From: Tubiluchus corallicola
Taxonomy: Eukaryota > Animalia > Priapulida
Direction of reading: 5' to 3'
NCBI GenBank assembly: GCA_030141605.1
Contig: JAQGDQ010001575.1
Location: 1-34,105 of the forward strand
Length of the DNA stretch: 34,105 bases
Position numbers and translations under genes: made by a program
Part shown: in pieces, positions 10,346 to 26,812 of the stretch
Numbering within the stretch: the stretch's first letter is position 1
Layout: each line of letters starts with the position of its first letter
The notes under the pieces: generated by a model
What the model was told of the DNA's origin: nothing
What the model saw: the letters and a program-made list of their open reading frames with translations, nothing else
The model's database searches: none

Positions 10346-10473
10346 TCAGTTGCTATGGTGACCAATGCTGCCTGTGCCAATAAGACGCAGAGCGTCTAAA
10401 AACTGATGCAACGAATGTGACTCCGTCTGGGCATCTGGTACCTCGTTCGAGGATAAGTCACTGTATTCTAAAT
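10346..10473 (-). CDS. precursor gene, last coding exon ((D)LEYSDLSS...IGHHSN*)
   Basis: Perfect branch point TACTAAC followed by TACTTTCAG acceptor. Open in phase 1 to TGA at 10348-10346. Candidate minus-strand AATAAA at 9891-9896. Confidence 0.75.
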
Positions 10474-13400
10474 CTGAAAGTAGTTAGTATTGGTTAAATG
10501 ATTGTTTTCCTAGGCCAGGGGTGTGCAAATTATCTGACTAGCCGGGCCACATTAAACTTTCCCACAAATCCTGTGGGCCACATGCAGTTTGATCAAGGAG
10601 CCAAGTACAGAAAGGCCTAACAACGATTTTTTGCACCCGACCTGCGTACATCATTACTACTACACTCAAGAAACTATTTTAGAAGTTATTAAAATTTATA
10701 TTACAAACCATATATTTCTACTTTCAGGACAGATAGTGGTAACTTCATTACAATGCATATTAGTAATGTGTATCACACAGTCTGTGTAGTACAGTGACAT
10801 TAAGCTACAACCGTCTTGTAAGGGTTAATGGTATCCGATCTAGTAGAAAAAACTACCCACACTATCTTTGGGATCGTGGCACGGACTTCAGCTGGATACA
10901 CTCAATTAATCGCTCGGGCCGCACTTTCATTAGGTTGACAAATCTCTTCGCGGGCTGCAATTTGCACACCCCCGTCCTAGAGTATTGAACACATTTGCAG
11001 CACAAAACGCTAAAAGCACAGCGTAGGATAGTTTAGTATTGAATAGCCGAGTCAGCTGCTGTGCTATTCTGGGCGCCATTTTGGCCACCATATTGGGGAA
11101 TACCGGTCAGCTAAATTGACGTTAGCCCAAAAACTTTTACGCCGCCATGCCGGCTCTCTCGGTACAACGCATTGGGGTTACGCTGCAGCATGTGGACATG
11201 CATAAAATATTAACGGACAGACAGACATACACACAGACTTTCATCTTTATATAGATTTGTTACTGAATAAAGACGATGATATGATTATGATGTACATTGA
11301 GAGTTAGTGGTCAAGACTGTGGTCAGTTTTTTCCTGTATGAATGCTTTAGGTGTGTGTGTGTTATTGGACAATGGCCGCAGCTGTTGGAAAGAGAAATGA
11401 AGAAATTATAGGGGGCGCTATTGGACTGCGTGCGTCCAGTGCAAATGAGAATAAGAATTCCGGCTTGCTGTGTCAGTGCCTGCTGAGTATGCAGCTCAAA
11501 TGCCAGAGTGTAGCAGTTCTAATCGCAAGGCCTCGGGTTCGAATCCCGCCTGCTCAGAGTTTTTCCGTGTCACCTTTCTTTCCTCAACTCTTTACTCACT
11601 AAGTTAGCAATTATTGTTTAATAAACTGCAAAGGTTTGTTAATTTCTGGCGGCGAGGGTCGTAATGTAATGAGCAGAGGAAATTAACTTCACGAAAAATG
11701 CAAATTACGAGATTACAAGGCTGCGTTCACATCAGCAGCAGTAATTTGAGTTATTTGTTTTTTCTGCGCCCTCAATTGCCGAATTTTTCAAGCAGTATGT
11801 TAGGTAAAACAATCTCCATCAACAAATTACAGGATAGTCAGCGGAAAAATGTCAATCCTGGAAAATTCAGTCACCATCCCTTTCATCCCATTCTATGTGG
11901 CGAGTTTATGGCTAAGCATATAAAGCGCCCGCACATTGTATGAATGACATGGGTTCGATACTCGGTCTGGACGCTATCATGAATAAATCTTGGCTAGTTA
12001 CCTGATAGAGGGAGACACTCATTCGAGTGTGGCTAAGACGCCTCTGCCAGTCCAGTAACTCATCATGAATATTTTTGATAATGAGCTGCTTTTTGATCAT
12101 GCTACCGTTATTGTTATTTCCTTGAGTAAACCCTGCCTTTCAGACTTACTCTACATGCAGTGTATAAAAATACCAAGTGTTTCCCGTCAAAAGACATTCC
12201 ATGGGATTTCCCTATCCCAGGTTTCCTGAAGATTTACATACCTGCAGGTGCAAATTCGTCTTCACCGCGTTTTCCTTTTCTTTGGCCTTGCATGCCTGTA
12301 TCTGAAAAAAAACATGTGAATTAAACTCTAGGAATAGCCTTGTTAGACAATTGATTTCAATACTAGATGCCCAGGGTGGCTAGGCAAACTAGGCAGCTGC
12401 CTAAGGCGCTAAATTTTGAGGGGTTCCAAAAAGGAAGCAACTCTTCAATTTTTAAATCTAGCACAAGTAATAACACAGTGTAAGGCTAGTGTGTAATTGC
12501 TCGAAAATGTACAAAAGTTTAACTAAATGAATTGAACTACCTACGTACGCCATTTTCCTGTCAAAATGTATGATTCATCGACGCTAACACAGATGTCTCT
12601 TTCGGGAGTAAAACTTTTTATTTACCTTTACTTTACCTGGCTTCCTAAAATGACGTCATTTCACGTGGAAATAACTGATAATAAGTAACAAATAACTGGT
12701 GCCTCATCCCAGTTTTGATTATATAGGTTTTACATGTCAAATGTAGACCTGCGTTAACTGAAATGTAGATTTAGGTAATTCAAATGTGTCTTGGTAACTC
12801 AAATGTAGACTTAGGTACTTCAAATGTGTTAACAATGGTTTTCAAGAAATCTTGAGCGTTTTTGGTAAGTCAAATGTAGACACATGTCAAGTTAAATGTG
12901 ACATTGGTGTCTCAAATGTGGATAGGTTGTAAAGCTTAAGGATGTTAAATTTAATCTTCTTTAATAATTGCTCTTAAGTTAAAATAACAACGTTATAGGT
13001 TCACTAATATTCTGTAAACTTTACATACCATTGGAACTGTTAGAGAAAACAATACATTCTTAAAATAAACAATGTTTCTTGAGAGAAACTAATTCATTAA
13101 TGCAGTGCTAATGCATTACTTAAAAAACTAATTAGTGATTCACTGTTCATTGGGAAGTGGGAACCGATTTATTCTTTTCTGCCGACATTTTCAGTAAAAC
13201 GTTGACAAATAAAATGTAGAATTCTATGTCTACATTTGACTTACCGAAGTCACATTTGAGTTACCAAAACACATTCGAAATTCCTGTCTACATTTGACTT
13301 ACCTAAGTCACATTTGAACTTTCCTGTGTCTACATTTGACGTGTAAAATCCATAGTTTATATTCTATGCATAGAGCAGCAGAGCTAAGTAGTACATGAAA

Positions 13401-25935: not shown

Positions 25936-26812
25936 GGTTGAGGTATCAAAATAAGACGTAACAAGAGGTCACCCCTCTTCACAGTCAACTGTAAAAGAAA
26001 AAAAAATCGATAAAATTTTTTTAATAATTAAAACTTCTACAATATCAAGATGATTTTTGTAACTATAATTAGCCGAAGAATAATAAAAAGAAAATCCAAG
26101 AAAATTTCTGTAGCTTCACGTTGAACTCTAATCAGTTCAGCACTAACCAACATACAGTTTTATGGCGGGACCGGAACATATCGTTTTTCAAACACGATAC
26201 TCTGAACTGGCTGAGGTTTTTAAGCCATGATGAAATGTGTGTTTCTCATCCCTCAGTGAGATAAATTACTTGAAACTACACATCTCATGAAACAATCAAC
26301 CTTCAAGATGTCGTGCTGTCAGAAAAAACTATAGCGACGCTTACTAATGTGAAAAGTGGACAGTTAGGTACACTTCAAGAAATTGCTTTCCTCCCAAAAG
26401 TTAGACATTTAGTCAGATTATAATTTATTTCCTAACCTTTTGGTGGTACAAAAGTGATCCTGTCCATAATCCTTTTAAATTTCGTCATCTAGTTTTCTAA
26501 TTGTTAATCAAAGTTAAACCAAAACCCTTTACTTAACAAAGCTAGGAAAATTCGTCTTGAAATTCGTCTTACATACTGCCTTATTGCGCACAGAGATTGT
26601 GTTAACAGCAACGATGCATAAAACTTTAAATTTAAGTTCCCGCTACGAGAGTTATTCGCAGCATAGCTATGCTATAGTTATAGCATAGTCAATGCTAGCA
26701 TAGCTATGCTGTAAATTGTTAAAAATAACATGTAAATACTGTTAACTGTTATAGCCTTGCAAATAAAGGGCGCATGTATAATTGTATATATTTATGTGGT
26801 CAGAATAAAGAG

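What the first reader, a model, noticed from the sequence alone, without database searches (positions are those of the whole stretch)
10346..25988. Hidden five-exon gene encoding a candidate novel neuropeptide precursor
Seen in sequence: five 43-128 bp minus-strand exons spread over 15.6 kb of repeats, each with canonical splice signals, join in phase (0,1,1,1) into a stop-free 122-aa protein. Established knowledge: a signal peptide, a furin/prohormone-convertase site (RSKR), an N-terminal Gln (pyroglutamate) and G-K-R (PAM amidation plus dibasic cleavage) are the standard grammar of neuropeptide precursors. Inference: the product is [18 protein letters not shown]2 (residues 55-69), or a 13-mer if the internal RK is also cut. 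I do not recognise this peptide as a described one. The ORF track shows only exon 1, read through into the intron.
Basis: partly seen in the sequence, partly recalled or inferred. Interest (0 to 1): 0.9.

Follow-up and report, generated by a model that had tools for sequence, protein, structure and literature searches.

The report
Orphan invertebrate neuropeptide precursor gene
Five short exons buried in 15.6 kb of repeats join in frame into a 122-residue protein with a hydrophobic start and hormone-type cutting sites, which is predicted to release a capped 15-residue signalling peptide for which our searches found no relative, though neither the RNA nor the peptide has been seen.

Summary
The gene model holds. 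All five exons have AG/GT ends and join in phases 0,1,1,1 into 122 codons. Four of them rank 2, 3, 8 and 9 of 1,466 splice-site pairs in the window. Shuffled exons give an open frame, a hydrophobic start and a dibasic…Gly-dibasic pattern in 8 of 60,000 trials. In a roughly 4%-divergent contig, 3 of 3 listed changes in exon 4 are synonymous.

Exon 5 is the weak part: its acceptor scores poorly, but it does not encode the peptide.

The likely product is a pyroglutamyl, amidated 15-mer (residues 55–69), probably a neuropeptide or hormone acting on a GPCR. Splicing, processing, tissue and receptor are untested, and the animal is unidentified.

No relative was found in protein, family, PDB or paper searches, but only single exons could be searched. 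It fails the defining residues of spexin/galanin (1 of 5) and of the GnRH superfamily, despite a galanin-like gene layout.

The scan noted other orphan precursors on other DNA; these are different genes. Verdict: a probably real orphan member of a known kind.

The parts
25867..25988 (-). First identified exon: 53 nt untranslated, ATG at 25935, codons 1-23. Preceded by a strong acceptor, so a further 5' exon or leader is implied
   Evidence: acceptor rank 3 of 1,854, donor rank 52 of 2,208; pair rank 3 of 1,466
25873..25935 (-). Predicted signal peptide, residues 1-21 (cut after Ser21 fits the -3/-1 rule; Ser19, Ser26 and Ser28 also fit); one Glu in the hydrophobic core
   Evidence: 11-residue hydropathy up to 2.88; -3/-1 candidates; SignalP not available
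24708..24750 (-). Exon 2 (43 nt, phase 0 to 1), N-terminal pro-region
   Evidence: pair rank 2 of 1,466
15181..15249 (-). Exon 3 (69 nt, phase 1 to 1): KR 47-48, RSKR 51-54 (15211-15200) and QQWIPW, the first six residues of the predicted peptide (from 15199)
   Evidence: pair rank 8 of 1,466
12242..12301 (-). Exon 4 (60 nt, phase 1 to 1): rest of the predicted peptide (12301-12276), GKR amidation and cleavage signal (12275-12267), start of the acidic C-terminal pro-region
   Evidence: pair rank 9 of 1,466; 3 of 3 listed changes in run X1 synonymous, no change listed at GT or AG
10346..10473 (-). Probable last coding exon (42 codons to TGA): acidic stretch, then an amphipathic helix. Least certain exon
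   Evidence: weak acceptor; of 6 TT[TAG]CAG acceptors between 12240 and 9000 it gives the longest open frame, 42 aa against 2-17; hydrophobic moment 0.61 at residues 102-112
10483..10489 (-). TACTAAC branch-point-like motif just upstream of the exon 5 acceptor
   Evidence: 2 such motifs on the minus strand, 0 on the plus strand of the window
9870..10345 (-). Candidate AT-rich 3' untranslated region, ATTAAA at 9916 and AATAAA at 9896; end point not shown
   Evidence: unique within the window

Best explanation
Five in-frame exons encode a 122-residue protein with a hydrophobic N-terminus, RSKR and GKR sites, which is likely a neuropeptide or peptide-hormone precursor predicted to release one pyroglutamyl, amidated 15-residue peptide that would act on a GPCR. 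Shown by sequence: exons, phases, open frame and motif positions. Inferred from established processing chemistry: signal peptidase cuts near Ser21; prohormone convertase or furin cuts after RSKR54 (and KR48) and after GKR72; carboxypeptidase E trims the KR; PAM converts Gly70 into an amide on Lys69; glutaminyl cyclase cyclises Gln55. The predicted mass is [M+H]+ 1839.91; the 13-mer from a cut at RK68-69 would lack the amide, [M+H]+ 1556.70. The acidic 50-residue C-terminal piece (10 D/E, 1 K/R) is probably an associated pro-peptide. Neural or endocrine expression and a GPCR target are inferred from the class only.
For: (1) Splice-site ranks, computed blind to the protein: exons 1-4 are 3, 2, 8 and 9 of 1,466 pairs on both strands (matrix values are approximate textbook figures, recalled). 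(2) Null tests: 8 of 60,000 dinucleotide shuffles and 4 of 60,000 sets of random window pieces meet all three criteria. Allowing any 4 of the top 9 candidates (126 sets) still gives about 0.02 (arithmetic). (3) Run X1, record 3 (817 nt, 33 substitutions, 2 gaps; 31 substitutions listed): 3 fall in exon 4, all third-position synonymous, and both gaps are intronic. Chance is 0.009 (38 of 180 possible changes are synonymous) to 0.032 (19 of 60 transitions). (4) No competing in-phase exon in the four introns scores above 5.6, against 11.5-14.9 for exons 1-4. (5) Exons are unique in the window. (6) The charge layout is typical: uncharged-to-basic peptide without Cys between basic sites, acidic C-terminal piece.
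Against: No spliced read, transcript or peptide was seen. No orthologue was found, so conservation focused on the peptide is untested: X1 lists no change in the 35 nt coding the second half of the peptide and GKR, but only about 1.4 are expected there. The synonymy test rests on three changes in one contig, which could be another allele, a sister species or a paralogue, and 2 of its 33 substitutions were not listed. The grammar appears in 8 of 123 shuffles that already had a signal-like start. Glu11 interrupts the signal core. The exon 5 acceptor is weak. A C-terminal Arg-Lys-amide is unusual and invites further trimming (own knowledge).
Confidence: 0.65

Rival explanations
1. The same gene and processing, but the amidated cationic Trp-containing peptide is a defence, venom or pheromone peptide from a gland or blood cells rather than a neural signal.
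For: The peptide has 2 Trp, 2 basic residues and no acidic residue, and is followed by an acidic pro-piece, a layout also seen in amidated defence peptides (own knowledge). Lack of relatives fits fast evolution.
Against: Net charge is only +2 and the peptide is hydrophilic, with 11-residue hydropathy of -1.1 to -2.1. No Cys. No duplicated exon in the window. No amino-acid change listed in exon 4 of X1.
Confidence: 0.12
2. It is a small secreted protein whose pro-piece is removed at RSKR. The functional chain is residues 55-122, or the C-terminal piece with its amphipathic helix, and GKR is incidental.
For: 8 of 123 signal-bearing shuffles show the dibasic…Gly-dibasic pattern. Amphipathic helix at 102-112.
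Against: Gln directly follows RSKR and Gly directly precedes KR, both fitting one capped peptide. The chain has no Cys, is largely hydrophilic, and exon 5 has no family or PDB match.
Confidence: 0.1
3. It is a strongly diverged galanin/spexin-type (or, less likely, GnRH-X-type) precursor, and the peptide acts on a receptor of that clade. This is a special case of the best explanation.
For: Galanin: six exons, non-coding first exon, 123 aa, peptide split over two exons (PMC12811797, passages). Spexin: peptide on exons 3 and 4, flanked by basic and GRR/GKR sites, starts NWTP (PMC6593056, passages); here xWxP and the same distance from Trp to the amide Gly. Residues 101-116 match rat GMAP 26-41 at 5 of 16 positions (sequence in PMC3516677; compared by hand). 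Ci-GnRH-X shares 5 of 16 positions with one gap (PMC5592718; by eye).
Against: Only 1 of the 5 shared spexin/galanin positions is kept (Trp2; not Thr3, Tyr9, Leu10, Gly12). The GMAP match scores about 21 with BLOSUM62, E about 0.35 (hand arithmetic, recalled matrix), and was picked after comparing many families. No Pfam hit for exon 5 at E up to 10. The peptide lies in coding exons 3-4, galanin in coding exons 2-3. GnRH: no His2, Ser4 or Pro9-Gly10, and the peptide sits 33 residues after the predicted signal cut.
Confidence: 0.08
4. The model is a chance assembly of splice-like sites, or a silent relic.
For: No transcript seen, no homologue found, weak exon 5 acceptor, Glu in the signal core.
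Against: Splice ranks, 8 of 60,000 and 4 of 60,000 in the null tests, synonymous-only change with intact splice sites in X1.
Confidence: 0.06

Closest known systems
Vertebrate spexin (SPX1/SPX2) precursors (PMC6593056, passages)
   Same: About 116-122 aa single-peptide precursor; multi-exon gene with the mature peptide split between two exons; Trp-x-Pro near the start; same Trp-to-amide-Gly spacing; G-basic-basic C-terminal site
   Different: 15 residues instead of 14, N-terminal Gln-Gln; lacks Thr3, Tyr9, Leu10 and Gly12; no sequence-search support
Preprogalanin and GMAP (PMC12811797, PMC3516677, passages)
   Same: 123 against 122 aa; non-coding first exon (implied here) plus five coding exons; peptide split by an intron; C-terminal associated peptide with an F-L-x-x-L-x-L-x-x-x-G helix
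   Different: Peptide is 15 residues against 29-30; lacks the conserved 1-15 core apart from Trp and one Gly; peptide in a different coding exon; helix match not significant
GnRH/AKH/corazonin superfamily, including Ciona Ci-GnRH-X (PMC5592718, PMC7697785, PMC5818035, passages)
   Same: Predicted pGlu1, Trp3 and C-terminal amide; Ci-GnRH-X is of similar length (16) with Trp6
   Different: No His2, Ser/Thr4, Trp/Tyr7 or Pro9-Gly10; not at the N-terminus of the precursor
Corallimorpharian pQQWTRYamide (pQITRFamide family; PMC7523074, passages)
   Same: First three residues pQ-Q-W
   Different: Six-residue RY-amide in 2 or 9 copies per precursor; nothing else shared

Membership tests
Neuropeptide / peptide-hormone precursor (class) | N-terminal signal peptide | tested here: met
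   Hydropathy 2.88 over residues 7-17 and -3/-1 site after Ser21; heuristic only, Glu11 atypical, SignalP not available
Neuropeptide / peptide-hormone precursor (class) | Basic convertase sites flanking a short peptide, with Gly before the C-terminal site | tested here: met
   RSKR 51-54, GKR 70-72
Neuropeptide / peptide-hormone precursor (class) | Peptide more conserved than the spacers across species | tested here: inconclusive
   No orthologue found; X1 covers exon 4 with three synonymous changes only
Neuropeptide / peptide-hormone precursor (class) | Expressed in neurons or endocrine cells; mature peptide detected; receptor activated | not testable with these tools
   Needs RNA, in situ, mass spectrometry and receptor assay
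Spexin/galanin | Trp2, Thr3, Tyr9, Leu10, Gly12 | tested here: not met
   1 of 5 (Trp), aligned by eye on the Trp; positions from PMC6593056 and PMC3516677
Spexin/galanin | Five- or six-exon gene with the peptide split over two exons | tested here: inconclusive
   Split peptide and five coding exons are present, but in coding exons 3-4 against 2-3 for galanin; identical phases 0,1,1,1 for galanin are recalled, not from a call
Spexin/galanin | GMAP-like C-terminal domain | tested here: not met
   No Pfam match for exon 5 at E up to 10 (HMMER filters drop most weak matches); 5 of 16 identities by hand, not significant
Spexin/galanin | Activates a galanin-clade receptor; conserved synteny | not testable with these tools
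   No genome held; no neighbouring host gene found in the window
GnRH/AKH/corazonin/ACP | pGlu1, aromatic residue 3, C-terminal amide | tested here: met
   Gln55, Trp57, Gly70; features from PMC5592718
GnRH/AKH/corazonin/ACP | Ser/Thr4 and Trp/Tyr7 (chordates: His2, Pro9-Gly10) | tested here: not met
   Ile4, Asn7, Gln2, Gly9-Met10
GnRH/AKH/corazonin/ACP | [quoted passage not shown] | tested here: not met
   33-residue pro-region precedes it; feature from PMC5818035
Tachykinin | C-terminal FxGxR-amide or FxGLM-amide | tested here: not met
   Ends in Gly-Gln-Arg-Lys without Phe; motif from the abstract start of PMC6880623 in the listing

The most novel reading that the evidence does not exclude
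The gene is a highly diverged invertebrate galanin/spexin-type precursor: galanin-like size and exon layout, a spexin-like Trp-x-Pro start and spacing, and a GMAP-like tail helix, with the receptor-binding core rewritten. It would supply a ligand for invertebrate galanin-clade receptors, which I recall as lacking one outside tunicates. The more probable and less striking reading (about 0.5) is that it founds an undescribed lineage-specific neuropeptide family.
Probability: 0.07. Interest if true: 0.75.

Novelty: new member of a known kind. Interest (0 to 1): 0.45.

Why it matters
If processed as predicted, it adds an undescribed capped 15-residue ligand that can be synthesised and screened against orphan GPCRs of its lineage, with a precise mass to look for. 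It also shows that micro-exon hormone genes in repeat-rich invertebrate genomes escape ORF-based annotation. The processing chemistry is textbook, and orphan precursors are common, so the general surprise is moderate. It would be high only if the galanin/spexin link were borne out by receptor or synteny data.

Tried and rejected
Expression: no RNA holder listed (2 runs listed, 1 holds part of the stretch). Run X2 (guessed RNA, same species label) laid 25 records, and none of the 8 listed pieces lies on an exon. This is no evidence either way. Among X1's 8 listed pieces, exon 3 is touched only at 15181-15186 and exon 5 not at all; a hole proves nothing. Exons 1-2 were not examined against any run, so their conservation is open. 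No genome is held, so paralogues, synteny and receptors were not examined.

Homologue searches were run with single exons or exon read-throughs, never the spliced protein, so they are weak:
- Exon 5 against longer proteins: 0 of 9 candidates at E up to 10.
- Exon 3 read-through: no candidate; 0 hits at E up to 0.001 among 1.84 billion representatives.
- PDB: 0 hits for exons 5 and 3.
- Pfam: 0 families for exons 1 and 5, one sub-threshold Swc3 match for the exon 3 read-through (E 0.091). NCBIfam: 0 of 3 proteins.
- ESM Atlas: no usable hit for exon 5 (shows neither absence nor novelty).
- A degenerate DNA pattern for the exon 3 motif gave 4 metagenome loci; all 4 are short frames of 28-44 aa that do not continue like this peptide and are rejected as chance.
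- Rfam: 0 matches. The bacterial promoter scan is irrelevant to an animal.

Papers: motif searches of the full-text library found no neuropeptide match (2 papers, both unrelated by title; 40 of 121 listed, none relevant by title; 30 of 177 listed, one cnidarian paper followed up). Supplement searches found no matching precursor in the passages shown: crinoids PMC9793003 (7 files), nemerteans/brachiopods/phoronids PMC8557429 (1 file), molluscs PMC6425005 (6 files, two cut when stored), xenacoelomorphs PMC6188537 (1 file), Nematostella PMC11087051 (12 of 31 files). Tunicate, amphioxus, hemichordate, sea-urchin and arthropod catalogues, subscription papers, figures and bioRxiv supplements were not searched and could hold a relative.

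Taxon: the retrotransposon's relatives are at most 53% identical among the 120 of 1,291 listed, and the named ones are fish and turtles (Atlas), which does not place the animal.

Alternative exons: a longer exon 3 (donor 15142, score -0.3 against 2.5) and intronic candidates scoring up to 5.6 were considered and not favoured. Stronger-scoring acceptors downstream of exon 4 give short frames or lie in repeats, but a different last exon is not excluded.
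Full report
OBSERVATION. The five exons are at the stated coordinates on the minus strand, each after CAG; the four donors are GTGAGT, GTGAGT, GTAAGT and GTATGT. Translation starts at the ATG at 25935, 53 nt into exon 1, and runs 122 codons to TGA at 10346, with phases 0,1,1,1. RSKR is at 51-54, Gln at 55, RK at 68-69, GKR at 70-72, and there is an unreported KR at 47-48. 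The predicted peptide is split: QQWIPW in exon 3 and the rest in exon 4. Exon 1 begins at one of the strongest acceptors of the strand, so an upstream non-coding exon or a spliced leader is implied (inference).

IS IT MORE THAN CHANCE? I scored all splice sites with a generic matrix (approximate textbook frequencies, recalled). Acceptors of exons 1-5 rank 3, 6, 4, 22 and 347 of 1,854 AG; donors of exons 1-4 rank 52, 5, 69 and 6 of 2,208 GT. Among 1,466 AG-GT pairs of 30-250 nt on both strands, exons 1-4 rank 3, 2, 8 and 9; on the minus strand alone they are four of the top five. With exon lengths kept, 961 of 60,000 dinucleotide shuffles give an ATG frame open through four exons, 123 also have a hydrophobic start, and 8 also have a dibasic…Gly-dibasic pattern. 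Random window pieces give 532, 81 and 4 of 60,000. Allowing any four of the top nine candidates still gives about 0.02. The cleavage grammar by itself is less rare: 8 of 123.

INDEPENDENT SEQUENCE. Run X1 (contigs, kind not on record) holds an 817-nt contig across exon 4 with 33 substitutions and 2 gaps. Of the 31 substitutions listed, 3 are in exon 4, and both gaps are intronic. All three are third-position synonymous (codons 75, 76, 78); chance is 0.009-0.032. No change is listed at the GT or AG. This is one contig with three changes, and it may be an allele, a sister species or a paralogue. Exons 1-2 were not examined against any run.

WEAK POINTS. The exon 5 acceptor ranks 106 of 685 downstream of exon 4. 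In its favour are TACTAAC at 10489, the longest open frame (42 aa) of 6 TT[TAG]CAG acceptors between 12240 and 9000, and an AT-rich tail with AATAAA at 9896. A different last exon is not excluded, but it would not change the peptide. No in-phase exon in the introns scores above 5.6, against 11.5-14.9 for exons 1-4. Glu11 sits in the signal core. No transcript or peptide was seen.

HOW IT LIKELY WORKS. From established prohormone chemistry (own knowledge): signal cut near Ser21, convertase cuts after KR48, RSKR54 and GKR72, carboxypeptidase trimming, amidation from Gly70, and cyclisation of Gln55. The product would be a 15-mer of [M+H]+ 1839.91. A cut at RK would give a 13-mer without amide, 1556.70; I think it less likely because KR is the preferred site. 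The peptide has no acidic residue and no Cys; the 50-residue tail has 10 acidic residues and an amphipathic helix at 102-112. A GPCR target and neural or endocrine release are inferred from the class. My odds: real gene about 0.93, secreted precursor about 0.88, capped signalling 15-mer about 0.65.

ORGANISM. Not identified, and no genome is held. Microsatellite-rich DNA with CpG observed/expected 0.71 suggests an invertebrate (inference). The retrotransposon gives no usable placement.

RELATIVES. None found. Searches used single exons or exon read-throughs, so they are weak: (0 of 9 candidates). The 4 metagenome matches to the exon 3 pattern are chance. Motif searches of the paper library and of five supplement sets (some files cut or not searched) showed no matching precursor. 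Tunicate, amphioxus, hemichordate, sea-urchin and arthropod catalogues were not searched. 'Undescribed' therefore means 'not found in these searches'.

KNOWN FAMILIES. It works like a single-peptide prohormone, but it is not shown to be a member of any family. Spexin and galanin are the nearest in layout: galanin has 123 aa, six exons, a non-coding first exon and a split peptide (PMC12811797, passages); spexin has its peptide on exons 3 and 4 and starts NWTP (PMC6593056, passages). But only Trp of the five shared positions is kept. Residues 101-116 match rat GMAP 26-41 (PMC3516677, passages) at 5 of 16 positions, which is not significant by hand arithmetic, and Pfam gives no hit. The GnRH superfamily shares pGlu1, Trp3 and the amide but not positions 2, 4, 7 and 9-10, nor the N-terminal position (PMC5592718, PMC7697785, PMC5818035, passages); Ci-GnRH-X shares 5 of 16 with one gap, by eye. 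The tachykinin motif is absent (abstract start in the listing). A coral-relative peptide pQQWTRYamide shares three residues only (PMC7523074, passages). PMC9400282, PMC4131245 and PMC4489612 (passages) gave background on the galanin/kisspeptin/AST-A receptor clade and no matching ligand.

EARLIER NOTES OF THE SCAN. None for this genome or for look-alike stretches. Word searches returned orphan precursors in other genomes (e1-7500808, e1-9531868, e1-9121961). They are different genes and unchecked notes. They only show that such finds recur; e1-7500808 has duplicated last exons, and I found no duplicated exon here.

VERDICT. This is a probably real orphan neuropeptide-type precursor, a new member of a known kind. 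Interest 0.45. The boldest reading not excluded is a diverged galanin/spexin-type gene (probability 0.07, interest 0.75 if true).

Noticed in passing
window 1033-3158 (+): Gypsy-type retrotransposon remnant in two reading frames, with the integrase C-terminal and SH3 domains upstream of RT and RNase H. This is the Gmr1-like domain order (name recalled). Closest listed proteins are at most 53% identical.
   Followed up: partly
window 20971-21269 and 33573-33746: Two pieces of an RTE-like LINE end (type recalled), 95% identical over 174 nt. The intronic one creates a decoy acceptor at 21244 (rank 6 of 1,466 pairs).
   Followed up: partly
window 5488-5856 (+): 122-codon frame resembling the C-terminus of CR1/L2-type LINE proteins (by eye, recalled); no Pfam match.
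   Followed up: partly
window 12719-13356, 20160-20420, 29932-30381: Dispersed repeat family with internal 19-22-bp units, in both orientations, 89-94% identical over 178-302 nt; possibly MITE-like.
   Followed up: no
window 14383-14933, 17108-17898, 25254-25682, 28198-29458: Minisatellite arrays of 56 bp x 9.8, 93 bp x 8.5, 37 bp x 11.6 and 34 bp x 37, plus long AG, CA and TAA/TGA microsatellites elsewhere.
   Followed up: no
window 11470-11555 (-): tRNA-like SINE head by eye; Rfam found nothing at gathering score.
   Followed up: no
window 30200-33010 (-): Candidate 5' end of the gene: TATA-like motifs at 32138 and 32119, a CRE half-site at 31277, and donors at 33002, 31860, 31336 and 30234. 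Consensus matches only.
   Followed up: partly
window 14119-14368 (+): The top-scoring splice pair of the window lies on the plus strand in intron 3 and has no open frame.
   Followed up: no
whole window: G+C 29-46% per kb and CpG observed/expected 0.71, ranging 0.24-1.1 per 2 kb. This suggests an invertebrate with mosaic methylation (inference). Run X1 differs from the window by about 1-4% in the unique pieces 1, 3, 4 and 5.
   Followed up: partly
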